Source: Lingula anatina (Eukaryota > Animalia > Brachiopoda). Taken from it: a stretch of DNA of 64,000 bases. Below are positions 709-53,450 of the stretch, in pieces. How positions within the stretch are numbered: the first letter of the stretch is position 1; each line of letters begins with the position of its first letter. Under the pieces are notes generated by a model. That model was not told the DNA's origin. It saw nothing but the letters and a program-made list of their open reading frames with translations, and did not search any database. Both the position numbers and the translations under genes were made by a program. Location: NCBI GenBank assembly GCA_051362555.1, contig CM120640.1, forward strand, positions 25,158,225 to 25,222,224, given 5' to 3'.

Positions 709-1296
709 TTATTGACTTTAATGTAGCTACTTTATGCAGAACAGTGTCACAGCAAACCTGTAGTAGTCTGCCATGGTTTTATATAGCATAAAATTGAATT
801 TGAAAAAAAAAAAAATTAATAAGTGCCATCGTAAATGATATGCAGTCTTAAATTCAAGTCTTTTGGTTAAGACCAACTCATATTTGATCTTTACAAGTAT
901 TTTAAATGTATGTTATGTCTACTTCACTCAAATATTAGTGGAATTCCACACCCCTGGTGCCCTATTTATATATTAGTAAAGAAACTGTTACTAGTGCCTG
1001 AGACTGTTTCGTTGCCCAGTGCAGCATTTGGCTGGAAAATGACTTGATGTATAAAAGGCACAAGGTGGAAAAATATAAGACACCTGAATCATAAATTCTG
1101 AAGTAACCCAATTTTAACTGATCCTTAAATATTAGAGACAGAAGTATTGGTTTGCTAAAGATGTTTGCTATATAATGCCATTGATATATGGGCATGATTT
1201 TCCTATCATATTTGGTACAATTTTAGACATTTTTCAAAGAATATTGTTGTAATTTGATAATTATACATTATTGATATTATTGATATTTTACAGCAG

Positions 1297-3375
1297 TGGA
1301 AAGTAGGGGACCAATGCAGAGCAGTTTTCACAGAAGATGATACTATTTATGATGCTGTGATTGTCTCCCTGAGTGAAGAAGTAGGTACTTGTGTTGTACG
1401 CTATCTGGATTATAACAATGAAGAGACACAAAAATTGGCAGACTTACTAGCTCCCAACAGGAGACATCAAAGACGAGAGTCAGGAAGTAATGCAGAAGTG
1501 AGTTTTTATCAGTTTTATATTAGAATGGAATCACTAATTTTAGAGAGTGAGGGTTTAATTTTTATATTTTTGATGTGAACAAAATGGAATGGGCATTTGG
1601 AAAATTCAGCTCTTGTGTCATTTTTAAATGCATGTCCTATAAAATGTCACTGGTGCAAAATTGGTTTAACTTCTCTTTATCACCTCACTCATTAAACAGT
1701 GCTGCCAGTGTTAAGTTGTCACAGTGAATATTGATACATAAGTTACATATTTTTCCCTGTTTCAGAGTGATATGGACTGTACCCCAGGTCCACATAGAGG
1801 AAGTAGACCTCACAGACAATCAGAGTCACATGCTCCTCCTCCCACTTGGCCATGGCCACAGTCACCAAATGTCATTCCACCATTTAGTGCAATGCCAGTA
1901 AGTTACAACTATAAATCACATCCATAATTCGACTAACTTGAAACAAAAAAATAATTAAGGTTCATTCTCACTTACATATTTTATTATATCTCAGTAGGCT
2001 ATATGATTGCAATGTAGGAAGCAAGTATCACCCCTGTTGTTTTTCCCCACAGCTAGGCATGCAGTTCAAATAAAACTGGTCTTAAATGCCATAGTTGTGG
2101 AGTTTGAAGGCCAGGTATGGTTTTTTTCTGGAAATTGAAAATGGAAGGAAGTTCTCATGCCATGTTCAGTGGTGGGGATGATGGCATTGGGAGAGACAAC
2201 GACAACAAGACATGATTTGATACAGTATGCTTTAAATAATATAACCAAATGAAGAGAGCATAAAACCACCATACTCTAAAGAACCTTTGGAGATTTAACA
2301 TCCAATCTTCTCTTTTGGTGACACACTGCTGCATTTCTTTAGATTTTATGCTGCAATGATTGTATGTTGTTCATTCAATTTTAAGTGAAAATGTAGCTGC
2401 GGATGAAATCATTGTCATGTTAAAAGCTAATATACTCCTACCTTTTCAAGTAATTTGCTATTTTTTTCTGTAAATTAAATTGTAAAAACTGTATTCTTCT
2501 TTTTATTGCAGCCTGTGTTTCCGTCATTGCCAGTCTTTCCACCCTGGACGAGCCCAGCACAAACACCATTATCCTCACAAGTCTGTAAACTTAATTATTC
2601 TTTTCTATTTTATTATTTTTTTTATTAATATATTTGTTGTTAATCTATCATCAAAAATTTATATATATTTAGTCATTTTTTTGAAGAAAAATAGTGTATT
2701 TCGAGTATGAAAATAAATGAACTGGTTATAGTAAGAAATGCGGTATTCTTGTATGCATTCAATTGCTTTGACACATATTGACCAAAAATAAAAAATAGAC
2801 CATAAATTTGCATTGTTTGAGTAGCATTGTAAACAGAAAGTTTAGTTATAATTCAGTTGTTACTAATATAATATTATGCCTGCATGTCAATTTGATATAG
2901 TTTGCACTGTTTTCCACCTTAGAAACCTCCATTTATGCCCCCTCCCCCACCAGTGCCTGAAGGCCTTGAAGGAGACAATGAGGCATTGTGCAGTATGTTG
3001 ATGTCCTGGTACATGAGTGGCTACCATACAGGTTATTACCAGGTAATTAAACATAGTCCATCAGCTGTGTTAAACATGCATAACTTACTTCTTGGGGGCT
3101 CTTTTTCCAACACTTTATGTTTGAATTAGAATAGGTGAAGTATAAACACTCCAAAAAACACACTTCTTTGAATGGTTGGGAAGTAAACAGAAAAAGGGAA
3201 AAGAAAGAAAAAGAAAGGTGTACATTCGTTAAATACAACTATTTTTTAATGCAAATTCAAACTGCCAATTTCATATTTATCTGATGTAAGCATATAATTT
3301 TAGGGCTTGAAGGATGCTAAGAAGCAACAACATGGCCACCAGCCTCACAAAGATTCTAGCGATGTTAAGCGGTAG
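1297..3375 (+). CDS. SMN: Survival motor neuron protein, 3' portion (5' exons lie upstream of the window)
   Basis: Exons 1297-1497, 1766-1897, 2512-2580, 2923-3042 and 3304-3375, all GT-AG and phase 0. Tudor domain [43 protein letters not shown], Pro-rich middle, YG-box [20 protein letters not shown], stop TAG at 3373-3375. The tandem acceptor CAGCAG allows an alternative exon start at 1294. Confidence 0.96.
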
Positions 3376-10089: not shown

Positions 10090-13000
10090 TTAGGGTGCCT
10101 GCACCAAGTTGCCCTCTCGTGCATAGTCTTGGATATCTTGCACTAAGTCCAGTCTTCCCATGTCCCGCAGGCAGTTGATCACATCACTCACGGTCACGTT
10201 AGAGGTTTGGCACCACTCTGTCAGCACAGCATCACATGGGTTCTGTTGCCTTTCCAGCACCTGGACTTCGAACATGCTCTTGCCTAGTTGAGCTGAAGAG
10301 ATGTCACATTTCATTTATTTATTTATTTTGATGAAATCATTGTTATGTTGTGAAGCATGTTGTTAAACGGTCAACCCATGTCTTTGTTACCAGTTCCAGA
10401 GAAAAAATAATAATTTTAATAATAATAATTTTTCGAACGGTAGCGAGAACTAAATTCACCTATAATTAAACAAAAACTACATTCTTTCAATTTTTTAATC
10501 AAGGAAGAGTCTTGATTTTTCAAATATACCGACATGATAATCATCTTTATATGACATTATACCTTGGCTGATGGGATGGCCATGAATCTTTATCAGCACG
10601 GTATTAATAAATCTCGACCTTGTTTTGCGTACAACGATTTATCGTAAATCATGATGTATACAGAATGAAGAAATCAAAAGTTTACGATATTCTACGTCTT
10701 TGATCAATGTCATTTTCTTTTATCAATTGTAAGATAATCTTTTGTTAAAAATGATTTATATTAGATGTCTACAAGAAGCTCTAGAAAAAAACTGGAGTTC
10801 GGCATATTGCACTCTGGGTCATTTCCCTAGATACTGCTCATGTTATCAGTATCTTATTAAGACGCTCAAGAGCATGATTATCAAACTTACAGTGGGAGAA
10901 GAATCAATCACGGATTTTACAGCAGTATGATTACATATTTGTTCTCTCTCTCTCTCCCTCCCTCTCTCCCTCGTCAATCTTACCTGCCAATCCCTTCCAG
11001 TCCCTACCAAAAATACTAGGTGTATTTAGGGCATTACACACGCGGTAGTATATGTCAGGTGTCAGGCTTTTGAATGAAGTATCTGCCCAACACTTCGCTG
11101 TCAAATCATTCTTCTTGCGTTGAAAAATCTTTTTCTCATCTGAGGTTGCCGTCTTATCTAACCCAACAGCCTGAAAACAGATCTTTTAATGTCACATGTG
11201 ATGTTTAATCTGTTTGAACAAAGTTTCAAGATTAGTTTTAAATGAGAATACAAAACAGGTTGATTCAAAAGAGTCAAGGTAAATATTAGACATAGTTATT
11301 TAATGAGTGGGATATATCTCGTGGTTAATTGTTGGGTATCAATATGTATGAATCAGTATGATATATAATTATGATGAAATTAATGAACTTCTTTTCCCTT
11401 GAATTCTATTAAAAAATGCCACCCGGTAGGGTTATCCAGTGCATCTAATTCTCCTTGCTAAATAATTTATATATCATTCACAAATTTGCTTGGTTGGATA
11501 GTTTTTTTTTTCATCTTTTTGCTTATCGTTGTACATGTCGCTAAAGACAAAAAAAGAAAACTTACTTTGCTCCCTTGCAACTCGATCATTCGTCCACGAC
11601 ACCAGAATGTCGTCTGCTTCTTACGTGACGCTGAGGCATCTTCTGTGTTCATGGACCAGGTTTCAAGAAGGTGAATATCCTGAAATGGAAGAGAGCCCTT
11701 ATTGAATCCAGGTGAGTACAACTTACAAGGATTTTTTTCCAGTTTGAATACCACAATAAAAAAGAATGCATTATATGCTTTATCTTTTTTTAAAGTTGTA
11801 TTATTTGTTTTTTACAGGGACTGCATTTATATTTCAATGAGTACTGTTGATTTTCGCAGAGTCTTATGTAATACCACATTACTGGTACTTACTGAATTCT
11901 CTTGGTCATGAGCATCCTGAAATGGGCATTTAGGGCCAAAAACGTAGGAACATTTCTCAAAATCCTGTGACACGATTCTTTTCAGATTGTGTTGGATTGC
12001 ATCTAACACTATGGCCGGTTCACGGCCTCTACCGCATCTTACAGTCACCTTGATCATTTGGCTTTGCTGGCTAACAAAATCTTCATTTCCAAGAAGTTCT
12101 AGCTTCAGTGCATAACTGTTTTCAAAAGTAAATAACGCAGCACTTTGTGAAATCCGAGGCACGGCGATATTTCGTAGGTTATCGTATTGAACACATTGGC
12201 ACACAAGTCGTAGGAAAATAGTCTGTGGGGGAAAGCATCCAAAGTCTACATAGTAAATTATATCTGAGTCGACGTCGTCATCCCACCATCCACTTAGATG
12301 TTTGGTATGAGGTAGCAGTTTTGGCACTATATAATGGAAACCATTATTGTTCAGCATCACTTTACATATAAGGTGATAATGCTGCAGAAGGTCTATCAAA
12401 CTCTCCTGGACATTGGCGTTTGTGAGGTCAGACAGCAAATGTTGCAGTAAAGGCGTGGAAAGCGTTCCAGTGTTTTTCAGGTTTCTCCAATCGTCCATTA
12501 ATGAATGTTTTTGTTTAGATAAAGATGGGATGGTCACTATGGAGGCCATGATATTGACCAGTAACTGTGGGTCAAAAACAATAACATCGGACAGTTTTCC
12601 ATTTGCTTTGTAAATAATTTCACCAATGAAATGAAAGAAGTTTAACATGTCTTTAAATTCGTCTTCATCTTTAATGTGACACTGGTTCTTTTTACACACT
12701 TCGTAAAGCTCTACAAAATTTCCAATGAGCTGTCCATTCTCTCTCCTTTTTTGAATAACTTCGTGTAGCGCCAGGTATTTTATGGGCCACAGTTGCTTTT
12801 GGAATTCGGACTCACGCGCTATGCGCATCAGTGTTTTCCGCAAATGCTCATGGTCAGCATCATTAACAGATCTGAGACTATTTTCCACCGGAAAAAGAGG
12901 CGTGTCATCCTCATTCCATATCAAAAATTTGTGCAAGTTGTGTGGCAGGCTGTTCCTCAAGAAATTGCCTATTTCTCTCACTTTCGTTGGTCCCACCATG

Positions 13001-14553
13001 TTATGATCGCGGTGAGTTCCAACTATCAGGACGGATGCGTTTGGGTACTGCGCGTGCACCTGTATTGAGTGTAACCAGAACAGCAAGCTGTTCAGAGATG
13101 TTCGAGCATCGAGAACAGCGTCCTTCAAGTTGAACACGACAAGGTAAATCGAATGTGCCGCCATGAAGATGTGATGTACGGAATGGTAGAGAGCATGCCC
13201 AGCATAGTCTCGCATTACCAATTTGACTCTTTCCCTGCGACGATGGCGCGCTTGTAAAACTTTGCTCGGGGAGAGCGAAGTGCTTTTGAATTTGTCGTTG
13301 CCGTGCTTTTGAGGACTTCGTTTGAGGCTGTTTATTAAATGGAGAAGCTCGACTCCAATAACAAAAGTTAGACCGACAACATGTTTGCCTAAATTAAAGT
13401 TTCGAGGAAACCTCCATCCTAACATGAAACTGAATCCAAGCCCGGGTATGATTCCTATGGCGTAGGTGATGAGACGACGCGTCTGCGGTTCACATAAAGG
13501 TGATACACGCTCTTTAAACAATAGGTAGAGTTTCTGTCCCACGGAAAGAAACACGCCGTGCCCGTAACCACAACCCAGGCCAAACACAAGGGTAAAAATA
13601 CTGCTGCTTTGTGTCTCTGCAGCCCTAGAAGCGACAATGGCAAGAGCAGGGACAATAATCCAAGAAATGACTTGTGGAAATTTTTGAGTCCCCAATCCCA
13701 CGCAGGTAGATAGCATGAAAATGGCTTGATGGTGATAAAGGCCAATTGGGCATGTAAGTGGTTGCGAGTCTGTGGCCACGGGAGTGTCCATAATACACAG
13801 AGTCAGGGTCATGCCAGTCCCTAAAGACATCCCACAGGATAACCCGATGTAACTGTCTATTAAGAAAAACAACACAAAGCCAAGTGTTAATGCTGGAAGA
13901 AGACCGTAGTCAGAACTCACTTGCTCAAAATGTTCGTGGAGTTGCCATCGGCACACACCGTCGGACCATAGCGCCAGAATGATCACGCCTATTGCTATAC
14001 CAAACCCATCCCGGAGTCCGAAGAAACACACAGAAACTGCATACGTTAGAACCAGAAGGAATCCCATCCATGGGACCTGGTCTGAAACACGTATGCTGAC
14101 ACACAAATATGCTGACAGCAAGCCAGCTACTAAGAGTAAAATCTTAAGAAAACATTTACAAGACGCCAAAACGGCGTTCTTTGCACTAACCTTGCGCGAA
14201 GGTTTTAATCGCATAAGTGTGTGTACTCCAAGCGCTTCCTCGAATTCCGAAGCGTTTGACAGAGCTACGTCAACCGTTTTCCATGACTCCGTTAAACCCG
14301 ATGTGTCCACTAGTCTCTGTTCAATACCGACGGTGCTCATTTCGTTCATATCAAACGGATCACAGGTCAACATTTTCCTAAGGCTTGTTTTGCCTTGTCG
14401 CTCTTTTCCGACGATGTTAACGACCACTCTTTGGTGAGCTTCTTTCCCTTCGTCTAAAGCGGTTTGCTGAGCCTGCAAACCAGCAGGACCGCTTACAAAC
14501 CCAACACCAGGTGTAAGACCCATCTCAAAAATGGCGTGGCTTTCGTCGCCCAT
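10090..14553 (-). CDS. Roco-family protein (Roc GTPase with a multi-pass transmembrane insertion, COR, death domain), about 1054 aa
   Basis: Exons 14553-11893, 11679-11566, 11170-10984 and 10292-10090, phases 0/0/1. G1 GKERQGKTS, G2 STVGI, G3 DYAG followed by YHSVHHIF, G4 VGTHRD, G5 region FPVEN. COR-like segments MLNFFHFIGEIIY, VFDPQLLV and YIVPKLLP. C-terminal death domain DWKGLAAQLG...VLTEW...VSDVINCLRDMGRLDLV. An acceptor at 14595 and a donor at 15566 suggest a 5'UTR exon. Confidence 0.88.
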
Positions 14554-17291
14554 AGTTAGGGCAATGGTGAGCTCGACACGAATTTCTTTTGTGACCTGAA
14601 AAAAATGGGAAATTCCGACTGGAGGTTATGTTTTCATGGAATGTGTAGTTGCATTAAGCTCTTATTATATCTTGATCTATCTTGCACTACTATCGAACAT
14701 TCGTGTCTCTGCGCGTGACTCGATTCTTTCAACGACATTTGGTTTTCCAATTATCGTCTTATAAAAAAAACAATTTAGTATATGTTTGCACAACATTACA
14801 TTGCATGTCTTTGTAGCACGCTGTTTAAGTAAACCACAACTATCGATAATATTAGATATGTGAGAGATTGGTTTCTGTCGGAACTCGTATAAGTGAAATA
14901 TAAAATCATTTAATTTCAAGATGTGATGTTGATATATAAAAAACCGATGGTAAACCATGGACAATTATCTAGTATAATTGCATTCTAGTTTATAAAATAT
15001 AAATTTTGATTTTAACATTTTGGAAATATCATGGCACATACATGTAGGAGCGTTTGTAGTTATGACGCCTTCCTCTTTTGCGTGTGAGATAATACACTGT
15101 CACCCAAGCGATACATGTGCCAGAACACCTCGAGCGTCAGCAAGAGGTATTCAAGACATATTGCGAGAGGGTGGCAGTGTGTTTTTTTTGGCATACGTAC
15201 CGGGGGAAAGTATTCGCGTCTCACTTATTAACGTAAGTGTTATATCAATAAAGTGTTGATCGCCGCGGGCATATAACATCTCTAGGTATGTATTGGTCTA
15301 CAAAGGATCAAAGGGGAACACCTCGCCACCTGAACAATGCTGGCGCATTTTATTTCCGCTTTAGCGATGACACGAAGCATCTAGACAGTCGGCTACTTTC
15401 CAATTATGCCCTATACGTTTGGCAATGATTTAGGTCTACCTTTCCATGCCCAGCCTGACGAGTAGGGTAAAATAGCTATCGATCCTCTCACTAATCCACT
15501 CTTTATCAAATCTAAAAGGCGAATCAAAAGAACAAGAAAAAACAAATACATCACTCTCAACTCACCCTCTTAATCAATCGACAAGTTCCTCAACTCTTGC
15601 TGAATACTGCCAGTGCATCCCTAGCAGCTTTAACAATGTATGCTTTACCAACTTTATACTGAATTGACAAACGACAGTAAGAATGTCTTCTGCACCTCCG
15701 CAAGAAACACCTTCTGACTCTCGAATATTTACCTGTTTGTCATTTTTCTTGGCACCAGACCATCGTGCACATATTAGGACTTTCCGAACGTTTATTTTTA
15801 GCATAACGACACTAAGCGTGATATCTGACAACGCGGACACGAAGCTGATAATGGAGCTGTCAAATTAACCCTAAATTAAACCACTAGTAGAGTGCGTGTG
15901 ACAAGGTCGTACCAATGGTGTCTCCTTTTTTCACATTGGGCGTTATACGTATCGGTATCGAAAAACTTAAAATGGCCCTCACATACATGTTTACTATAAA
16001 TTGTACCTTTACCTCTGAGAATGTCATATATTGTAGAGGTAGATTCTTTATACCTATAATCGTAATAGTGAGGAACGCGTGAAGAGCACAGCGGTATGTT
16101 AGATAATTCGTGGGGCATTTTGGTCCAAAGTAAAAATCACCAGTAACAAGAAACTGATTTAAGAAAAGCCTAATAATACCGGTACATTTTCCATGATAAA
16201 TATTAACTGCAACACCGAGTAAAAAATTGATATAAAAGAGTTTTTACTTCTTATCCGTAGCTACACAAAGCATAAAGAATTGTATCGATACATGTAGCCG
16301 CTCTGGTTATTACCCGCTCCCCACCCCCACCCCCCAAAAAATAATAATATACAATCACATCTCGTTAATCAACTTTAGCTGGTAACAGTGGTTTTGCAAT
16401 CACTCACCTTACCAGTCATAGCACGCGCCCCTCCCCTTCAACGGGATACGGTTACATAAGAAAAATCTGTATATCAAATTCCTTTCAACCGGTATTTTGT
16501 TTTATTGTGGTTTGCAAACATCGGCTAAACCGTGGATACAATTTAATTTCTTGACATGCTATTGACACTGGTTCAATTTATCCGTAATTTACACACTACT
16601 GCCAGTCCTTATGTTTGAACATTGAGTCATACTTCCTGCATCTGCTATCTCCATAAGTCAAGAGCTTAAATTAATGTCCCAGTGTTATTTTATACATCGT
16701 GGGAGAATGCACCGGTCTTTGATCATCTTTAAAAACGTTTAAATCGATTATCAATGTTTAGCAATGTATTTTATTCTCTCTCCGCTGTACACTTTTTTGG
16801 GGGGTTAAACATATTTTCAAAAATTTTAGGATTTTTTTTAAATAACGAATTATTATAGGCAATGAATGAAAAGATAATGCTGTAAATGATTCGATCATTA
16901 TTTGAATGAAAACGGTGTAAATTACTGTCGCCTTTGAAACACTTTTCACCACGATACAACCTTCATTGAACTTTAAGCAAGAGCTAGTACAACTATATGT
17001 ATATAGGTAGAACAACATCAGGTGCCACGGCCTACGAGTAGGAAGTTAACGCTGTTGATACTTACTGTATGTTCGAATGTTTCTAAAACGTGATACGTAA
17101 AGGTGAATATTTCTAAAAAATATTTATCATAGCATCATGAATATTTCTTTACTGTTTGTGCGTAAGAACCAAGTCTGAGTAGGTTACGTCTTCTTTTTTT
17201 TTTTTTTTTTTTGTCGATGGAAAATGTACTTATTACAGTGAATTGCCAAAGAAGCTATATCTAGCTATGATTTATTTTGTCTTTTCATTCA

Positions 17292-18840
17292 TTAGCATTC
17301 CAAGAAGCCTTTCTCTTGCGAAAAAGTCAGTCTCCAAATTTGAGGTGGCGTGTTCAAGCTTACAAATACAGTAGTTTCGTCCGAGGAAGATGAAATATTC
17401 CCTCCCCACCTGAATGCAATACCCTCCAACTGTTGACTTGTGGTAGGTATTTCAAAATCCCGACTTTCTGAAGTCTCTAAGTTCCAGGAACGGACAACGG
17501 CTTTGCTATCCAATAATGCATACAAAGTATTGTTATAAACACTTAAAGCACCGATTTTCTCGTGGACGTGTAAAGATTGTAATGCCACTGGATGTGAATG
17601 CAATTCGGAGGTGCTGTTGTTGGTGTTGAAGGTGAATATCTGGATGAATTGCTCTGAGGTAGCGAAGAAGGTTCCAGGCCTATTCTCCATCTCTCCGCTG
17701 CCGACCCAAACACTGTCACTGTAAGCAATGCCCCCAAAGCTAGGATCACGACCTGCGTGTGAATACCAAACTTTATAATTTGTACAAGTTATTTAGATTT
17801 TTTTCTTTTTCAGAATAAAATATCACACAGTTTATAGCCCTGACCTACGTTTCACTAATGAAATTAGGCAAATGATTGATAATGTAAAGGAATTTGTACT
17901 TTGATAAAATGTAGCTCTAAAGTAGTCAAGCAAAATTTTTAAAAGCTGGTCTTAAAACATTGTTATATATTTTCATGTAAAACAATTTAAATGTCCCAGT
18001 TAATTGGATATTAATAAATTTTGAGTCGATTAAAGTGCTTTGCTTTACAGAAAGGCCCACCTTTGACTTCTCTTTTGATGATAGGTCTTTGTAGGCCTAT
18101 TTAGAAGTGTGCTTTTCAAAGCTTTTTTAAAGTGAATTTTTTTTGCACTTAAAAGTGTTGTTGCTAATGCTACATACATCTGGGATTATCATGAAAAATG
18201 CTAACAAATTTTTTTTCGGTGAGATTACTGTAATCAAAACGAACACTATTTACTGTTGGACTGTAATTTGTCTAAAATCATATTCTAAGATAGCTACAAC
18301 AAAATAAATCCCAAACTTTTAGATTTCCTTTTGACAGTATGATCAAAAAAGTTTCAAATCCACAAAACAAGAAAAATGGCCCGGTTTGTTTTCATTAATT
18401 ACCTAAAAGGTGTTTCATTTCTACAACATCTAAAACCGTTCTCTTCTGAAGATCATACATCAGAATTCGGTTGGTTGGGAACTCAGTGGCGATGTATATG
18501 ATTTGAGGTTTATCTGCCTTTGTGAAAGTAAGTCCTTGAAAATCGTACTTCTCCTTCCCTAAAAATACAATAAATGGACTTAACAAGAAAAAAAACTGCC
18601 AAGAATAAACAATAAAACTTATTGCAAAATTCACCCATTCTTAAAACGTTTTGCTGGGATATATATATGTGTAATTTCAATTTTATGCCCCAAGAATAAA
18701 AGTTTCCTATACATATATTTTGTTGGCCAAGATATGTGATGGAGACGCAAAAGTCCAGTTTAGGTATACGTATTAGATGACGGATTAGAGCTCAATCCAG
18801 TCAACCCCTTTTTTAAGTCATGAAATTAATCATGGTAGGC

Positions 18841-18906
<66 letters not shown>

Positions 18907-19520
18907 TACGCATTACTTTGGCGTTTCAAGAGAAATGTTCAACTTACCTCTGACATGTATGCTTTCTTCCAGAACTTCAGTGTAGATATTTATTTTGGCT
19001 ACGATGTTGCCTGAACACGCCCACAGGTACCGCCCCGATGGATCTAACACCACGTCACTTGGTTCAAAGAATACGGGGAAAATCGTGTTGAGCTTGTGGC
19101 AGCGGCTGGATTCGTGTAGAATATTACGAAAACCTTGAAAGTAGTCAATTTGTTATGTAGGATGCTAGTTCATATTTAATCGGCACATATTCTTACATAA
19201 CCCTTTTGCAAGTCTGATAAGGTTCTATATAGGAATTGGGAAATATATCTAATCACATACGCTAAGTTTTTAACTATTCATCAGCAGTTACACCATTTTG
19301 AAATGTGTTGTTCTCACCATTCCCAATTAAGTTTTCCTTTTCCAGTCGTTTCAGATAATTCCTGGATTGTAAACTGAGCATTGACAGAATGGCCACACAC
19401 AGAAACAATGTCAACACAGCAGGACCAAATGCATCCTGGTATCCAGTCTTTGAAGTATGCTTCAGCCGATACAGCCGTAGCTAAAAGCAAACCGGCAATT
19501 CTGGTCTTACGTTTTGATAA

Positions 19521-19556
<36 letters not shown>

Positions 19557-22500
19557 CTTGAATGCTACTGAAATATTACAATAGCCGATATGCAAAAGTG
19601 ACAACGGCAATGTCTTGTAGCACTAATTAAGTAAATTTCATTGAACCACAGAGAACACATTTTGAGATGTCAGATTTTGAAGTTCGGTGTGCCTTTTATT
19701 CGCCCATGGTCAATAATCATAACGATATTGTCGTTATTTATTAAAGAAAAAAAGGTTTGTACTCACGTAGTACATAATCGTGGCATAAATGAGCATAGCC
19801 ATTGCCAGTGGAAGAAGTAAGAGACCTGTGATCAGTGCTTCATTATCTCCCAGTGCAACAAGTGCTCCGCTCAGTGTCACCTAACAGGTGGTAGAAAGGA
19901 TGGACAGAAATGTGGTAGTGAAGACGTAAAGCTATTTTGAGTTGATTACTAATCCGAATAAGGCAAAGGCCCCATCACATTTGTTTATATAATGCCTGCA
20001 TGTTTATATCCCTATACGGCAATTCATAGAAATATACAATTTGTTAGAGATAAGATGAACATTTCTTAAAAACTTTTTGAATGAAAATAAGTTTACAATA
20101 CATAAATATATAAATAAATTACTAGTAGCAACGATGCCGTCAGCCATTGAATGAAGGTTCTTTCGTTTGCAAAGTAAGTCTTGGGTTCTACTTTCAAGCG
20201 TCTCTTTTTTTGGGATGTCGCACAACCTGAAGCATTTTTCTGAAAACTTCTCGAAAACTTTGGTAGTTTTGTATGTCGGAGACGCAGTGCACCTACATCA
20301 ATTGAAATATGGGCATTTACACTTTTTATCGAATGTGAAGTGATCTTTTGAAAAACAAGTATTATATAGACTTTTTAAAATTATATTTATAAATCAAAAC
20401 ATCTTTACAAACGAACAAAAAAATGAATGAAAAATATTCTTATTTTGAACCTCCGCATAAGCCGGTTTATACGCACTGTTTTGCAACATTTCAATAAGGG
20501 GAATAGTCGGCATTTTAGCGTTCTCGTCTGTCACTTGGATGCTGCTTTCCCCAGTTCCACAGTTTAATGAATAGGATGTTGAATCTCCAGTAGTCTCTAT
20601 GACAGAATTTTGATTCACAGATAGACGGTGATCGTTTCCCTCTTGATGCAGTAAAACCTGTGGAAAAAATAAATAAAGAGCGCCTACATCATTTATTAAG
20701 CTGGGGACGCGTTAATGTTTTGAAATAAAAACCACGTTTACGACTTTTTAAATGCTGAACGGGCCTCATAGTAATTGCGGCTAATCGTCGCCATGCATAC
20801 CTTACTAAAACCAGTTTTACTCCCGTGAATGGTGACATCAGCGAACCAGTCTGGAAACTCCTTTATCCTGTGAGGGTAGAAACAGGTTGTCGCTTGTTGA
20901 GATTTTGAGAACTTTTCCATGCGACGGACACTAGGGTGCTCTAATAGAAGTCTTAGCCATTCAGGAAAAGTAGACCCAAGCTCTACTTTGAGGATGCTGT
21001 ACGGGAACTCGCAATAGTGGCGGTTCTCAACTATTTCTAGGAGAGAATTTGAAGGAGATATTATCGAACATGTTGCGTCAGCTTTGAGCCGTCTATTTGT
21101 AGGCATCTTAACGTTTAACCCAATAAAAATGATGTTCATCATTTTAAACCTCTTTTGATGATATGAAATCGTTAGATGAATTTATTAGCACGTAGAAAAT
21201 TAATTTCAAGTACTTTATTTAACTCACCATCTTCGTTTCGCTTCCATTGTGAATTTTGTCGGCCACCCTCATCGACAAAAATGAGATCAGAATCTAAGGT
21301 GATTCTGACTTCATTGTCATCAGGGCTTTGAAATATCATTCTTTTGCATGCCGTTCTCACCAAAGGCTCCAAATTATCTCTATTGATGACCTTCTGTGCC
21401 TCATTTCTCAAACGCGTCTCTGGTTTGGCAGAATCACAAAGAGAGGCAATTGGTTCTCCTGAAAATAAAGTTCTTGTATCCACTACCGTGAAATGAATAT
21501 AGACGTGAAATGAATATAGGTTTTTGATCTAATAATGTTATATGGGATACATGCAAAAGAATAGGTATTTTCACTTGAATTTCTTAACATGTGACTGTAA
21601 TAAAGGTAAGGCAGACAAAGCATGCTCCCATACCTTTTAAATAACTGAAAACTTCCTCTTCGTTCAACGGAAATCGTTCCGTTTTATTGCAAATACTTTC
21701 GCTGTTGTAGGTTTTCTTCTCAACGTATACTATCGAATCAAGTGGACTTGCAAGAGGAACTACCTGTAGAAAAGTTGATTGACAGGTACTAATCCGTAAA
21801 TTTCGTTAAAATCAATAAATCTTAATTACATAAAAAATTGCATATCTTGAAGCAACAGAAGCAATATCATTGAATCAAAATTTAAAAATATCTGATTGAT
21901 TTAAATGACATCAAGGACTATGGTTTAAAACTCACGTCTTTATCGAACAACGTTTTGCGTAACCCAAGTTTACATTTCTATCCATTACCCCATCAATTCC
22001 GAGTATTCGGTAACTGCGTGTAACACACAAGCATAATGGATTACTATTGCTCACCAACTAAACACCAAAAGACTAAGAGCACGGTTAGTACCGGACAGTG
22101 TCTTGAAATCTGACGCAGTGACTGATCACTGTAAACATACCTCCCTCCCTTGTGAAAGGTTGTGCCATCGCAGCCGTATGGCCGTGGCGCTTTCGTCCAG
22201 TCGCTGGAGGCTGTGGTAAGAGAGCAGATCTGAGTTATCCAGAAAAACCGAGGAAACCAATGTCATGAAAGGCGGTGTGCTTTCTATGAGACTCTCGTGA
22301 GGCTCGGGGTTGCAATTAAGCTGGGGACTTATCCTGAAAATTTAGTTTTTAAAGTTAATAAAAGCGAATCTTCTGCTCGTTTTTTACGGGTCACGAGACA
22401 GTACTTTTTCTAAAAAAAAAATGGTAATAAATTATTGCAAACGGAGGATTGCTCAACGCGTGACTTAAATATAAAAATATTGAAATATTGGTAGTCTTCC

Positions 22501-23845
22501 AGCGTCTTGTCTCATGGAACCAGTGTAACGCCGTACACCAATTAAGCATGTACACGTGATTGTATTCCACCACTATGTCATCAGTCAGGGTCCAGTATTT
22601 TTCCCTTTTTCGCTGTTTTAATGCATCTCGTCTCACGAAGCGTTCTTTCATAGTTGCGGCTCTCTTTGAAGAATTTTGTCTAGCTATCCATTTTGGCTAT
22701 TGATAAATGGGACTTTGCTATCAAATCTTAACTTGAATATCCTTCTCCCAAAATTCTAATATCTCTTAGATCCCATTTCCAGAGATTAGATCGATCTACT
22801 TTAGATCGACCTAACTCCCTGGGGGTTCACGCTAAATAGCTGTCAGCCGGGCGGACACGAAAGCTAATTACCCCCTTACAGCTTGTAGTAGGCGGGACGG
22901 ACATTTAAGCCGGATTATCTGACAGTAATCTAGGCAGACTCCCCGCGGGAATAGATCGATCTAAAAGCTCTGGGAATACAGCCTTATTTCAGGTTCTGAA
23001 TGGTAGGCTTATTCAAGAAAAACAAAGTGCTTGAGCCATTTAGGTGATTCAGGTGCAAAACCTGAAACGCCTTTGATATCTAAAAATGATTAATTTTAAA
23101 TAGTGAAGCGTAGTGAAGCATAACGAAGCGTAAAAAAAGGGATTTAGAATGGGTTTACAATTTGGTCTTACCTGTACATGTCATTTCGAATGCTGATTGG
23201 TAGATGCTTGATGAGTTCGGTCTTAACCGCAAAGACATCCTCTGTTTTTACCAAGTGTTTTAAAATGTTTCGCTCAAACAGTTTTTCTTCCACATTTTCG
23301 CGTATTTTGTTATTTTTTGCTTTGTCTTTACTTCTTGTTTCTGTGTAAAGAATGCTAATGTGGAAAAGAAATGCGTCCAGTTCATTTAAATATCTGGCAA
23401 AGAAGGCACCATGATTCTGTGAAAAGTACCAGTCGCTGGTTATCCCTGTGATTAGGTCGTGTTTTTCAATGACGCGGTCCATTCCTTCTCTGTTAAGCAT
23501 GATGAATTTTTCCATATCTTCTAGTTCAGTAACGAAATCATCGATGAACTCCTTGAATAATAATTTCTCAGGAATTTGGCTATCGGTGTTTCTGATGTGC
23601 CCCCCGCATTTTTCTTGGTCTCGGTAATATTGAAGGCGCTGAAGGGTCATGCGTAGTTCCTGGAGCTTCAGATTTATAAATGTTTTGATCCGCTCCAATT
23701 CTTCGTTGAAAAGAAGCAAAAACTCACCTTCCCCGGTGGCCCCTGTGATGTTGTGAGCACAGTTTTTCAGAGATTCGTATCGCATAAAGTGGTGTCCGTT
23801 TTTCGATCGGAGACAGTACTGATCGCTCCTCCCCTTGAACTTCAT
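17292..23845 (-). CDS. Vtc4-like putative polyphosphate polymerase: SPX, VTC (TTM/CYTH tunnel), DUF202 (3 TM), C-terminal beta-propeller-like domain, about 964 aa
   Basis: Twelve GT-AG exons splice without stops: 23845-23172, 22333-22141, 21763-21634, 21458-21228, 21036-20801, 20657-20477, 20292-20123, 19880-19767, 19480-19318, 19133-18948, 18558-18403, 17752-17292. The exon 6/7 junction has alternative in-frame choices. SPX motifs: MKF, RYESLK, LNREGMDRVIEKHD. VTC motifs: FERNILKH, SSVFLDN, AIRLRW, VYVEKKT, ERFPL, VRITLDS, FPYSILKVEL, KFSK, FPDW. DUF202 motifs: KVEPKTYFANERTFIQWL and YQDAFGPAVL. Confidence 0.9.
18843..18904. repeat. (TA)n microsatellite
   Basis: Perfect run in an intron of the Vtc4-like gene. 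Confidence 0.95.
19521..19546. repeat. (GT)n microsatellite
   Basis: Perfect GT run in an intron of the Vtc4-like gene. Confidence 0.9.
22769..22983. mobile_element. MITE, PIF/Harbinger (Tourist)-like
   Basis: Imperfect terminal inverted repeats (gatcccatttccagagattagatcgatcta ... tagatcgatctaaaagctctgggaatacagcc) flanked by TTA on both sides. Lies in intron 1 of the Vtc4-like gene. Confidence 0.6.
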
Positions 23846-26541
23846 GTTTGATTATACATTTAGTTTTGCGGGGAATAAAGAAGCGTCTTTTCCCTTTTTT
23901 CACGAAAATGAAATTTACCTGTCTGGTGCCCTTCTGTCTTTATTATAAAATTTCATATTGCAAGTTATTTGCGTTGAGTCCGAACAATAAAATGGGTAAT
24001 AAACGGAGTATTTTTGTTGTTATCGTCAAGGCTAAATAAAAGATTAAAGCATCCCTGGCTCCTTTGCTGAATCAAATTTATAATTCAATCAGAAGTGAAA
24101 AACGTGGTAGTGTCTCGGCGGTTTCCTGCTTCTTTCACAGTTCTTTCAGCCCTCTGCTTACAGCAACACCTTGCATTCTCGTATACGGTGTATAATATTT
24201 ATAGAGCTATCTCTGCACTGGTATACTAATTTTCTTTTGTGGATGCTTTTACTGACAATCACATCTGCAACTTGAATATTTTTTCCACTCTCATCGACCA
24301 AGAATTCTTGACTACAGAAATGCTGTCACTGCCATACATTAAGCCTTATTTGTTCCCTTCACATGTTTGTGTTTACATGTAGGCCTACAGTGAAAAATTA
24401 TGCTGGACCGTGAAGACAACAACTGTGAGATTAACTATCTGATAGCACGGAATATTCATTCCTGTAGTCGCACACGTGCACTGTGCATAGTAGGCTTATT
24501 CCAGAAGTAATTTAAAGTACATCTACATTGCACGAGCATTTTTCACCATTTAGTTGATTTTTGAATTCATTCAAAATTTTCAACCGCAATAATGCAAGTA
24601 CATGGTCGGTCTTGAAATTTTTGGCAATTTTCAATAGTATACACATCTGAGCGTGACCTACCTGTTTGGACAATGTCCAAATTTTTGTGGGATGCGTGTT
24701 CTCGTATAATGCTCAATTTACAGATAGGGCTTTATGTACATGTAAGATCTTACGAAATATTAGTAGTACACTAGAGACCTAATACTAAATGAAGCCTACA
24801 TGTAGTGAATTGCAAATTTGACAAGTATTTTTTGGGGAAATTATTTGTTAGTATATTTAAATATTCTTAGACCAAGGTCTTCGTCATAAAACAAAATGTT
24901 ATTTATTTATTTATCTATTTATTTATTAAAATTACCAACTTTAAAAGGTGAATGTTTTTTTTAAAGACGAATGAAATAAATAAAATAGGATGGAATAAAA
25001 TGAAATGGGCCAACATAAAATTACGTAGCGTATTAGAGAAAATTTAAAAGCTTTTAAAAGTAGTCCCACAAGCATATTTTCCTCAGATCGTCTGATCTGA
25101 TATCTAGGATCATCGACTAAAAGTTTCATTGTGTCTCTAATCCACATGGTGCCTGTGAGCCTTGGCTAGCATACCGTAGTAGGCCTATATTGTATTAAAC
25201 ATAAAATCGGATTTATACCATAGGAACTGAGCCTTTAGAGCAAGGTCCATTTGTGAACACCACACATTGATCATTTAAATCTTACGATACGGTGAGCCTC
25301 AATCCCTCATAGCCCTACCGAACATTTTGATTTAATGATAATACAACTACACTGTAGTTTTGGTGAATATCTAAAGCTTTTAGATCTGATGTAGGCCCTA
25401 TGAGGTCTGAGGGACTATAGGCCTACCAAACCTCAAACTTCGTAGGCCTATGTAGGCCCTACATGGTGTGAAATGAGGGGATTGATCTGGTTGTTTTAAA
25501 ACAATGAAACCATTTCAAGGCGCTTACCAGACGTAGCCATACCATTAACCTGGAAAATTCTTCGTGGTACCCTAAACTGCCATACCATAAGATCGTTTTT
25601 CATTATTTTGATATTTATGCGTGCCACCTCCCCCCCCCCCCCCCCCTCCATATCACTGCGGAATGTAATGAAAAGCTTGGTTCATTTTCATTTCTGTGAT
25701 GTGCCCAGATCATGATATAGCAATCGACATCGGAATCAATACAAGCTCTGGGGTACAGTATTAATGCCACGAAATATCATATCAGGCTTGTTTCTTTTCG
25801 CTTAAATAACTGCTCCCGACCTAATTAGATGCTTTTGACCAATGAGATTGCTCCTGTGGTTGTGATGGTTTAAGTAGGTCACACAAGCATGAAAAGAAGC
25901 AAATAGACCTAGTCAGAAGTTAGTCAGTGCTTTTCACTTTCAGTAAGTAATGTTGTTATTTTGTTATCTATATTTGCATGTTTGATATATGTCAAATTAG
26001 AGTTTGAATAGTTATGGCTACCAAAATTTAACATATGCATGGTGAATAGTGTGAAAAAGAATCGTCGCGATTTAGTTTTATTTTAAATAGCAGGGCAAAG
26101 TCCAATGTCAAAGACTACATATGTCAAGTCAACAAGTGCCTTTTTCAGTATTCACGCAGTGTTTGCCTTCAGTTTGAAAACATTTGCAAGCAGTTGCTTA
26201 AAGCCAGTAAGTTTTAGTTTTCAATGGTAGAGGTCGATTCTCGTCATTTATAGTGTTTTGTTCACTGGTGAGATTTAGATGAATTTATAATAATTGTAGT
26301 ATCTTACACGCTTTCAGTCTTGTGAGTCTACACAGTAGACTGTTTACTGAACTGAATCGATACGGGTATTTGGCAACTTGCCAGTTAAACTTGAGTGTAT
26401 TCACTTTCGCAAAATGGCAGAAAATGACATAGACCCGTGATAATATTCTTTGTTCATAATTTTCTATAATCTTTAAAGATGTTTAAGTTATTTTAGTAGC
26501 TGATTTCAGTCTTAATTGTGGTAAAATATATTTGCGGTAGC

Positions 26542-27316: not shown

Positions 27317-28503
27317 TTTACTTTACACATAAAAATGTTCAGGTCCTGGCCCAAAGACGTGAGTGCATCTAAACAGTTGGGAGAGCCAAGTGGGTTGGAA
27401 TGTTCTTTGTTTGCCCAGAGGTTCAAAGGTCTGAAGGTACTAATATGGAACAAAAACAGTTTCCACTGACTGTGCTGTTTTAACAGAATTTCTTGTAAGT
27501 TATTTATGTACCAATTATGAACCTCCGGAAAGTAAAAAACCTGCAGAAGCCGAGGACAGGCTGCAGCCTTTAAAACAGCTGCTAGAACACACCTGTAACT
27601 CCTTTTCAAGTTATGTGCAGAGGCAGTTATGCTATGGGAATTCGTGATATATCAAATATAAAGTGGGTGATTTAAGCTTGAGTTTCACTGTGGAGTACTG
27701 TCCTCTGAAATACTGGATCTGTCTGTGGAAGGAATTTAGAACTACTACCATCCATTATGCATGCCACCTGCTGTGAATGCAAAGTAACTAAGAGATACTT
27801 CTGGTCTTTGGCCCTTGCCTCTGACTGAGCTCAGCTTGCCTCATCAGTAATGATTGTTTTATGTCATATGAGATTTGTTTTGGATTATATCTTCGTGTTT
27901 TACTTTCTAGGTGCTTGTGCCAGGCCATGTAGAAACATGGCAGGTGACCAATGGCTGTCAACTTCAAAGCCATGAGACTAAAAAAGGTAATTTAATGCAG
28001 GACACAGCATGTTAGCTTTTTGTTCCTCTCATTATTCTCTCTATAAAATAGTAATATCCCACCCTCTTAAGGCTCAAGATAATAAGATAATAAGATAATA
28101 AGAAAATATAAATTGATATGGCTTGCTATTATAATCACTCTTCAGTTGAAAATCTTTTTAAAATTATTGATGAGAACTGTAAACATGTTGCACAAAACAA
28201 GCTATTTGATGTACTCATAATATCATTTCAGAGATGCAAGTTTACCGAGATTGCACACAAGATGTTGTCACCAGTTTGTGCCATGATGTTGCTTCTCTGT
28301 GCAGAATACTTAGAACAAGCTTATATGAAGAGTTTCTGAATGAGGAGTTGAAATACTTATGTAGTGCTGCTTCAGTTGACTCTAAACTTGTACTGTTATG
28401 GTGATGACCAAGTGAACCAACTGTGACATGAAATGATACAATCACCAACAAAATTGGTATCAGAATATGTCCTTCAGAAAACAGTTCCAGTCTAACAATC
28501 ACC

Positions 28504-29613
28504 ATGGTGACCCCACCTCAATCCCCTAAATTGACTGTAAATCGATACATTTCCGGAAAATGGTGCACAAATGTATGCTTTCTATTAGGGATACTAGCCT
28601 TGTTGATAATTGCCCTAATTGTTGTCCAAAGTAAGTCAGTTACACCTTATGATGAAGCAGAAAGAAGTACAGATAGAGTTGAGGACAGTTTTAGTATGTC
28701 GAACACTGATGTTGTTGCTTTGAACAGAGGTGGTATTCCCGACACTAAGTCTAAGTGGAGTTGGTCTGCGTTGGGTGGTTTGAAACAGGAAACCATCAAA
28801 TGTCGGAAAGACGCCTTTCTACTTATACTGATTACATCCTCTCCTGAAAATTTTGTGAAACGACAAGGTATTAGAAAATCTTATTGCAGTAAAAAGCAAA
28901 CAGAAGCTATTGGCGGAGTGACTTGCAACTGGCAGTGTGTTTTTCTCATTGGCAAGACAGACAAATACACCATAAATAAAAATTTGAAGAAAGAAAGTGC
29001 AATCAGCAGAGACCTACTGTTTGGGAACTACCTTGACAGTTATAGGAATTTAACTCTTAAAGTTCTTCATGGACTTCGTTGGAGCTCTGAGGAATGCCAT
29101 GCAAAATATATCTTAAAGACAGATGATGATTGTTTTATCAATACTCCCATTTTATCCCAGTTTCTGCTTTATGAGAATACTCTAACTAAGGGTCTGTATG
29201 CCGGACATGTGTTTGTGGAACAACAACATCGTGAAGTTGTGAGAGGAAATCCGAAATTCAACAAATGGGCAGTGTCAGATCAAGATTTCAAGGAACAATA
29301 TTACCCAGAATATGTCAGTGGAACTGGATATGTGCTCTCCTGTGATGTTGTGGAGGATATTCTTTCCCTTGTGCCAAAAGTCCCACCTTTTGTGAATGAG
29401 GATGCTTACATCGGTACCCTTGTACACAAGCTTGGGATTTCCCCAGTAAAAAGTGGGAGATTTTCACTGCAGAACAAATGGAAAACTTGTAACTTTCTCT
29501 ATTTTTTCAGCATTCATGGGGTAGGCATTGAGACTCAAGCAGAAATGTTGGGACAAGTTGCCAGGGCCAGGAAAACTTGCCATTCTGGGGAAGAAGTAAA
29601 GTCTTGGAGATAA
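28504..29613 (+). CDS. Beta-1,3-galactosyl/GlcNAc-transferase, GT31 (Galactosyl_T) family, 369 aa, single coding exon
   Basis: Type II membrane anchor (VCFLLGILALLIIALIVV), motif I LLILITSSPENFVKRQGIRKSY, DSYRNLTLKV, DxD motif YILKTDDDCFIN, YPEYVSGTGYVLS and EDAYIG. Confidence 0.93.
   Translation: MVTPPQSPKLTVNRYISGKWCTNVCFLLGILALLIIALIVVQSKSVTPYDEAERSTDRVEDSFSMSNTDVVALNRGGIPDTKSKWSWSALGGLKQETIKCRKDAFLLILITSSPENFVKRQGIRKSYCSKKQTEAIGGVTCNWQCVFLIGKTDKYTINKNLKKESAISRDLLFGNYLDSYRNLTLKVLHGLRWSSEECHAKYILKTDDDCFINTPILSQFLLYENTLTKGLYAGHVFVEQQHREVVRGNPKFNKWAVSDQDFKEQYYPEYVSGTGYVLSCDVVEDILSLVPKVPPFVNEDAYIGTLVHKLGISPVKSGRFSLQNKWKTCNFLYFFSIHGVGIETQAEMLGQVARARKTCHSGEEVKSWR

Positions 29614-33721: not shown

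Positions 33722-53450
<19,729 letters not shown>

What the first reader, a model, noticed from the sequence alone, without database searches (positions are those of the whole stretch)
13333..14154. Multi-pass membrane domain inserted inside a Roc GTPase between G2 and G3
Seen: G1 (aa 49-57) and G2 (STVGI, aa 73-77) are separated from G3 (DYAG, aa 449-452) by about 370 aa. Residues ~134-407 hold roughly 8-10 hydrophobic, Gly-rich segments bounded by basic stretches on both sides, all within one uninterrupted exon. Known: characterised Roco proteins (LRRK1/2, DAPK1, MFHAS1) are soluble, although some carry soluble insertions in this loop. Inference: an integral-membrane Roco in which a receptor, channel or pore-like bundle is coupled directly to the switch regions.
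Basis: partly seen in the sequence, partly recalled or inferred. Interest (0 to 1): 0.8.

Follow-up and report, generated by a model that had tools for sequence, protein, structure and literature searches.

The report
Ten-pass membrane domain inside Roc GTPase
A lamp-shell gene encodes a relative of the Parkinson's protein LRRK2 whose GTP switch is interrupted by a predicted ten-helix membrane domain and which ends in a cell-death signalling domain; the same design occurs in molluscs, acorn worms, lancelets and a feather star, so it likely marks an old, unstudied family of membrane-embedded signalling switches.

Summary
Confirmed, and wider than reported. The ORF is the 2,703-nt second exon of a five-exon gene matching Lingula anatina LOC106150386: Roc[insert]-COR-Death, 1,092 aa. 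The insert (aa 134-409) has 10% charged residues, against 23% elsewhere in the exon. Family hydropathy gives ten segments, with basic flanks that fit N-in/C-in. An alignment-based AlphaFold2 model (pLDDT 84.7) rebuilds the split Roc around an all-helical insert: 167 of 167 residues of an intact Rab superpose at 3.0 A. All 24 of 29 other hits with a G1-G3 span of about 400 aa carry a hydrophobic insert. Soluble relatives hold a polar loop of about 100 aa between the same two helices. So the bundle sits on a stalk at the beta2-beta3 hairpin, not on the switches themselves. Best reading (0.5): a membrane sensor or assembly module that tunes the Roc-COR switch and death-domain signalling. Rivals are a passive anchor and a GTPase-gated pore. 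Membrane topology and function are predicted only, and RNA coverage is thin. Ten literature searches found no description. The nearest design precedent is the KAP/YobI (Tmn) ATPases.

The parts
15733..15804 (-). Coding exon 1 (isoform X1 only; 24 aa)
   Evidence: tblastn with P0003, GT donor
11893..14595 (-). Exon 2 (2703 nt): all of Roc, the membrane insert and COR; Met of isoform X2 at 14553
   Evidence: AG/GT borders
14386..14409 (-). G1 / P-loop GKERQGKT (aa 49-56)
   Evidence: G49, G54, K55, T56 invariant in 25 of 25 rows
14305..14334 (-). G2 threonine T74 and strand beta2 (aa 74-83)
   Evidence: aligns with LRRK2 T1368 region
14206..14268 (-). Stalk helix A (aa 96-116), after conserved W91; a similar helix is seen by eye in soluble relatives
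13327..14154 (-). Predicted 10-helix membrane domain (aa 134-409): TM1 134-153, TM2 161-179, TM3 184-202, TM4 218-241, TM5 245-257 (short), TM6 273-290 (weak in this species), TM7 295-311, TM8 318-338, TM9 361-380, TM10 389-409; conserved buried polar residues D197, S243, H332, E402
13240..13269 (-). Stalk helix B (aa 429-438) before strand beta3
13198..13224 (-). Strand beta3 and G3 DYAG (aa 444-452)
13006..13017 (-). G4 THRD (aa 513-516)
11896..12798 (-). COR domain (COR-A Pfam hit plus COR-B-like sheet in the model)
11566..11679 (-). Exon 3 (linker after COR)
10984..11170 (-). Exon 4 (linker and first part of the Death domain)
10090..10292 (-). Exon 5 (rest of the Death domain and stop codon)

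Best explanation
The gene encodes a Roc-COR GTPase with a C-terminal Death domain and a 276-residue hydrophobic insert between G2 and G3 that is predicted to form ten membrane helices and likely acts as a sensing or assembly module, which would tune the GTP switch and through it death-domain signalling. Step 1 (shown in sequence): all G motifs are intact on the two sides of the insert. Step 2 (predicted): the insert is an N-in/C-in bundle, so both halves meet in the cytosol and fold as one Ras-like domain. Step 3 (inferred): a change in the bundle (ligand, lipid or membrane state, or lateral clustering) is passed through two stalk helices to the beta2-beta3 hairpin that links switch I and switch II. 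Step 4 (inferred from Roco biology): the nucleotide state changes the Roc-COR arrangement. Step 5 (inferred): this exposes or clusters the Death domains, which recruit death-fold adaptors. The stimulus is unidentified.
Against: No experiment exists on any member. The site is permissive: 9 of 9 soluble relatives with both G1 and G3 in one ORF have a 158-171 aa span filled with a polar loop, and the C-terminal linker (413-421) is low-confidence in the model and variable in length, which would loosen coupling. The outer loops are short (6-15 aa), so there is no obvious ectodomain. TM5 is short and TM6 is weakly hydrophobic here (mean KD 0.87 and 0.42), so the count of ten is not certain. The core orthologue turned up once per named species in most cases, unlike fast-evolving immune receptors. 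RNA reads were sparse: none at 13451-13904 in 4 of 4 runs.
Confidence: 0.5

Rival explanations
1. Passive anchor or scaffold: the bundle only places a constitutive Roc-COR-Death protein on a given membrane and does not talk to the switch.
For: The site tolerates unrelated polar inserts. The linkers are long and partly low-confidence. Inserts of four subgroups (7 proteins) could not be shown to be homologous to the rest in pairwise profile tests. Brown-algal Rocos gained C-terminal membrane anchors twice (PMC3341825, passages).
Against: Ten helices with conserved glycines, prolines and buried H/D/E have been kept across protostomes and deuterostomes, where one or two would anchor.
Confidence: 0.25
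2. The bundle is the effector: a GTPase-gated channel, transporter or pore that opens on oligomerisation, as for the bacterial defence ATPase Tmn, with the Death domain serving assembly or input.
For: Conserved polar residues inside predicted helices, glycine-rich helix pairs, and a short TM4-TM5 hairpin broken at GxSxG. Tmn has two helices inserted in its P-loop domain, forms a decamer and exports Mg2+ (PMC13001434, abstract and passages).
Against: No internal 5+5 or hairpin repeat above reversed controls in 22 of 22 profile comparisons. No transporter or channel family is hit by more than 1 of 29 (Pfam) or 1 of 36 (NCBIfam) members. A separate death-fold or caspase output is already present.
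Confidence: 0.2
3. Artefact: the insert is an unspliced intron-like segment, a nested gene or an assembly fusion, and the real protein is a soluble Roco.
For: In the two oligo-dT runs (25 reads) both Roc halves and COR have reads but 13451-14358 has none; 13451-13904 is empty in all four runs.
Against: The frame is open through the insert, and the window differs from the RefSeq protein at only 6 of 886 residues of this exon. Homologous inserts occur at the same site in many phyla. One run has reads at 13905-14358 and another at 13224-13450, and no joints were listed. None of the 3 in-frame donor-acceptor pairs found inside the insert removes it whole.
Confidence: 0.04

Closest known systems
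Roco proteins (LRRK1, LRRK2, Chlorobium and Methanosarcina Roco; DAPK1 for Roc-COR-Death order, recalled)
   Same: Roc-COR tandem by sequence (LRRK2 E 6e-26) and by model (Foldseek top hits LRRK1/LRRK2, E 2e-16); G motifs and the switch-II histidine (H460, LRRK2 H1405 by the alignment) are conserved.
   Different: No LRR/ankyrin sensor and no kinase. G1 to G3 is 400 aa against 53 in LRRK2, and the span is filled by a predicted ten-helix membrane domain.
Soluble invertebrate-type Roc-COR(-Death) proteins (P0031 Mercenaria; loci L002-L013)
   Same: Same G2-beta2-W-helix ... helix-beta3-G3 frame; closest insert-free relatives found.
   Different: About 100 aa of polar low-complexity sequence instead of the membrane bundle; G1-G3 158-171 aa.
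KAP and YobI/Tmn P-loop ATPases
   Same: Membrane helices tied to, or inserted within, a P-loop domain; defence and signalling roles (PMC13001434, passages; the 2004 Aravind paper seen only as a reference title).
   Different: Those are ATPases of another class with 2-4 helices. This is a Ras-like GTPase with about ten. It works like them in layout but is not a member.
Ectocarpus Rocos with membrane segments
   Same: Membrane-attached Roco; one member has a large insert inside the GTPase domain (PMC3341825, passages).
   Different: One or two helices at the C-terminus, after COR. The in-domain insert is a repeat array after strand 5, not a membrane bundle in the beta2-beta3 loop.
Engineered Cdc42Lov / photoinhibitable Rac1
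   Same: A folded domain inserted between G2 and G3 of a small GTPase controls it allosterically (PMC10083549, passages; 5hzh appears).
   Different: Synthetic, soluble, and joined with short linkers rather than a helical stalk.

Membership tests
Roco (Roc-COR) GTPases | Ras-like Roc domain with G1-G4 motifs | tested here: met
   Pfam Roc E 5e-12; motifs; reassembled fold in the model
Roco (Roc-COR) GTPases | COR directly after Roc | tested here: met
   COR-A E 2e-11 at aa 590-747; Foldseek and VIA-align matches to Roc-COR structures
Roco (Roc-COR) GTPases | GTP binding and hydrolysis; nucleotide-dependent oligomer cycle | not testable with these tools
   needs biochemistry
LRRK/DAPK kinases | Protein kinase domain and N-terminal repeats | tested here: not met
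   No kinase, LRR or ankyrin family in 29 of 29 members scanned (first 25 of 28 families shown, none of these)
Integral multi-pass membrane protein | Several ~20-aa apolar helices with charge-biased loops | tested here: met
   (prediction only; no dedicated topology predictor was available)
Integral multi-pass membrane protein | Even number of crossings (both Roc halves on one side) | tested here: inconclusive
   Ten peaks and a reassembled Roc favour even; TM5 and TM6 are weak
KAP/YobI NTPases | ATPase-type P-loop domain with Walker B, KAP/YobI family match | tested here: not met
   The domain is Ras-like with DxxG and G4; no KAP family hit
Known channel/transporter/receptor folds | Sequence or fold match of the insert | tested here: inconclusive
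   The insert was not folded alone; whole-model searches were filled by GTPases
Death-domain signalling proteins | Death domain | tested here: met
   PF00531 E 4e-12 at aa 969-1044; MyD88 and p75NTR matches
Death-domain signalling proteins | Homotypic adaptor recruitment, or immune/death output | not testable with these tools
   needs cell assays

The most novel reading that the evidence does not exclude
An ancient animal receptor class in which a previously undescribed ten-helix membrane sensor is built into the interswitch hairpin of its own G protein: receptor, G protein and death-fold or caspase effector in one chain, present in the bilaterian ancestor.
Probability: 0.35. Interest if true: 0.9.

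Novelty: new variant of a known kind. Interest (0 to 1): 0.76.

Why it matters
How Roc domains are switched on is a long-standing open question for LRRK2 and its relatives. This family offers a natural Roco in which the candidate input module is wired into the hairpin between switch I and switch II, and it comes with natural insert-free relatives as controls. It also supplies a conserved polytopic membrane domain with no family assignment. And it is a candidate membrane-level innate-immune or cell-death switch in molluscs, brachiopods, hemichordates, lancelets and echinoderms, including farmed oysters, mussels and abalone.

Tried and rejected
Single-sequence AlphaFold2 gave pLDDT 36.7 and was not used. 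The insert alone matched nothing in Pfam, in PDB sequences at E<=10 or in the ESM Atlas feature search. phmmer of the insert region against 1.84 billion representatives gave 13 hits: 12 family members or their fragments and 1 tandem-repeat protein (P0042, rejected as compositional); no free-standing membrane relative was listed. An internal repeat in the insert was sought and not found. Homology of the inserts of P0022 and P0024 is weak (25-27 bits vs 13-20 for reversed copies), and for P0026-P0030 it is not above controls. The sequencing-run search: no RNA holder listed. A second read lay-down at lower stringency was not obtained, so RNA evidence rests. The complex predictor was not available, so dimer formation was not examined. 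No whole genome was held, so copy number in this genome is untested. The tree is the quick IQ-TREE run; the careful run did not finish. Literature: searches aimed at a membrane insert in Roc and found no description; some searches sought analogues. The library lacks most subscription papers (the Marin Roco surveys, recalled, were not seen), and no supplements were read, so a domain diagram in a supplement could pre-empt the claim.

Full report
1. Observation. The minus-strand frame 11827-14625 is open for 932 codons. From the Met at 14553, G1 is aa 49-56, the G2 threonine is T74 and G3 is aa 449-452. Pfam reports Roc (E 6e-12) and COR-A (E 1e-11), and nothing for the stretch 13333-14154 alone. 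The insert (aa 134-409) has 9.8% charged residues and 10.5% glycine, against 22.6% and 4.8% in the other 610 aa of the exon. It holds 6 hydrophobic 19-mers against 1; random sequence of the soluble composition never gave more than 3 in 2000 draws.

2. The gene. A search with the insert returned one protein among 5612 candidates, Lingula anatina LOC106150386 (isoforms of 1054 and 1092 aa). Five exons with canonical internal borders (15733-15804, 11893-14595, 11566-11679, 10984-11170, 10090-10292) translate to 1092 aa plus stop and differ from the database protein at 11 positions. Roc, insert and COR all lie in exon 2. RNA support is thin: 46 reads in 4 runs, 13 of them on a repeat. Reads fall on both Roc halves, on COR and on both ends of the insert (13905-14358 in X1; 13224-13450 in X7), none at 13451-13904, and no joints were listed. 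Most laid reads were only 95-99% alike, so reads from divergent alleles may have been lost. Three in-frame donor-acceptor pairs exist inside the insert; none removes it whole.

3. A family. To avoid selecting for the insert I searched with the C-terminal half only (aa 430-1054). Of 29 other hits, 24 have G1 and G3 about 360-420 aa apart with hydrophobic segments between them, 3 are partial models lacking G1, and the 2 weakest are soluble Rocos. Named members come from Haliotis, Pinctada, Mytilus, Patella, Nucella, Glandiceps, Ptychodera, Branchiostoma and Antedon; others are unnamed records. I then took the 31 insert-bearing proteins with both motifs, leaving out 6 partial models, 2 soluble proteins, 1 repeat protein and the cluster members. 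Their G1-G3 distance is 358-420 aa (median 395), with 4-10 hydrophobic windows inside that span against 0-2 after G3. Profile comparison links the insert of the Lingula-mollusc-hemichordate group to a Ptychodera paralogue group (P 6e-5), Branchiostoma (8e-4) and Antedon (6.5e-5), and the Ptychodera group to Branchiostoma (2e-9); 28 of 28 reversed controls had P>=0.02. The other four subgroups did not pass; two of them are weakly positive against a pooled profile. A quick tree of 38 post-G3 segments (insert excluded) puts the 25 insert-bearing rows that include all named animals on one branch (SH-aLRT 96), with Lingula, molluscs and two hemichordates as one group (100). The five unnamed rows P0026-P0030 join the rest with support of only 52 (8 soluble rows, long branches). 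The insertion therefore likely predates the protostome-deuterostome split; a second origin for P0026-P0030 is not excluded.

4. Where the insert sits. Against LRRK2 the profile matches in two pieces, ending just after G2 and restarting at strand beta3: about ten residues of hairpin in LRRK2 correspond to about 360 here. A metagenome scan gave 13 loci, 1 with the insert and 12 with no hydrophobic segment before G3. The 9 of these 12 that have G1 and G3 in one ORF space them 158-171 aa apart; by eye they show the same W plus helix after beta2 and a helix before beta3, with a polar Ser/Pro/Glu-rich loop between. The membrane domain thus replaces a loop at the tip of a two-helix stalk on the beta2-beta3 hairpin.

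6. How it likely works. Shown: motifs, architecture and conservation. Predicted: a ten-pass N-in/C-in bundle and a reassembled Roc. Inferred: the bundle is an input or assembly module acting through the stalk on the hairpin that joins the two switches, and the output is death-fold clustering. In support, engineered insertion in this part of Cdc42 controls effector binding more than 100-fold (PMC10083549, passages). The family lacks the LRR/ankyrin sensors usual in Rocos, and it swaps Death for a caspase in P0024. Roc-type GTPases are described as switches of apoptotic and immune systems (PMC8195603, passages), and ROCO domains occur in Aplysia TLR- and MyD88-like proteins (PMC9334734, passages). 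I put this at 0.5. A passive anchor gets 0.25 because the site is permissive and the linkers loose. A GTPase-gated pore or transporter like Tmn gets 0.2 (PMC13001434, abstract and passages). An artefact gets 0.04.

7. Comparison with what is known. It is a Roco by both defining domains. It is neither a LRRK/DAPK kinase nor a KAP/YobI ATPase, although it shares their layout of helices within a P-loop domain. Membrane segments reported for Rocos in the papers I could read are C-terminal anchors in Ectocarpus (PMC3341825, PMC4104024, passages). Insertions in Roc are noted as non-conserved or repeat sequences (PMC11378527, passages). PMC2927912 (passages) had nothing relevant. Six searches aimed at a membrane insert in Roc found no description; the library is incomplete and no supplements were read. 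An unchecked note from this scan (e1-7365813) reports a two-helix, EGF-bearing insert splitting Roc in a marine plankton eukaryote. I did not test it; if right, the loop has taken membrane-looped modules more than once. The Atlas lists only Roc/COR/Death clusters for the whole protein.

8. Verdict. A real, conserved and, as far as my searches reach, undescribed variant of the Roco family, with a polytopic membrane domain of no assigned family inside the G domain. The mechanism is untested. Interest 0.76.

Noticed in passing
window 17292-23851 (-): Upstream neighbour with exons matching VTC (E 3e-14 and 4e-5) and weakly SPX (E 0.016): a VTC4-like polyphosphate polymerase layout in an animal genome; a beta-rich ORF at 17292-17792 may be its last exon.
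   Followed up: no
window 13195-13197 and 13054-13056 (-), aa H453 and H500: By the alignment these residues sit at LRRK2 R1398 and R1441; His at the R1441 position is nearly invariant in the family and also present in soluble relatives. R1441H and R1398H are human LRRK2 variants (effects recalled; R1398H named).
   Followed up: partly
P0024 (Branchiostoma belcheri): Same Roc[insert]-COR core but with a C-terminal caspase domain instead of Death.
   Followed up: partly
P0020 and P0041: Each model lacks about two predicted helices (TM4-5 and TM9-10 respectively), which keeps the count even; these may be gene-model errors.
   Followed up: no
P0011, P0012, P0014, P0016-P0018 (Ptychodera flava): Six paralogues share the same longest-contig length, suggesting a local expansion on one chromosome; a separate orthologue-like copy (P0034) lies on another.
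   Followed up: no
L001:5640-5710 vs window 11893: The relative's long ORF ends just after a GT at about the same place after the COR Cys-Pro motif, suggesting that the single large Roc-insert-COR exon is conserved.
   Followed up: partly
L011:225-3689, L012:286-3735: Soluble Roc-COR proteins with, by eye, N-terminal zinc-finger- and ankyrin-like segments and a C-terminal death-like domain.
   Followed up: no
window 15085-15117: Thirteen reads of run X1 match only this short stretch of intron 1, with consistent loose ends: a transcribed repeat from elsewhere.
   Followed up: no
window 1261-1575 (+); 28432-29613 (+); 33722-34840, 43843-44148, 53058-53477 (-): SMN Tudor exon and a single-exon galactosyltransferase (Pfam); protein-kinase-like exon fragments recognised by eye.
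   Followed up: no
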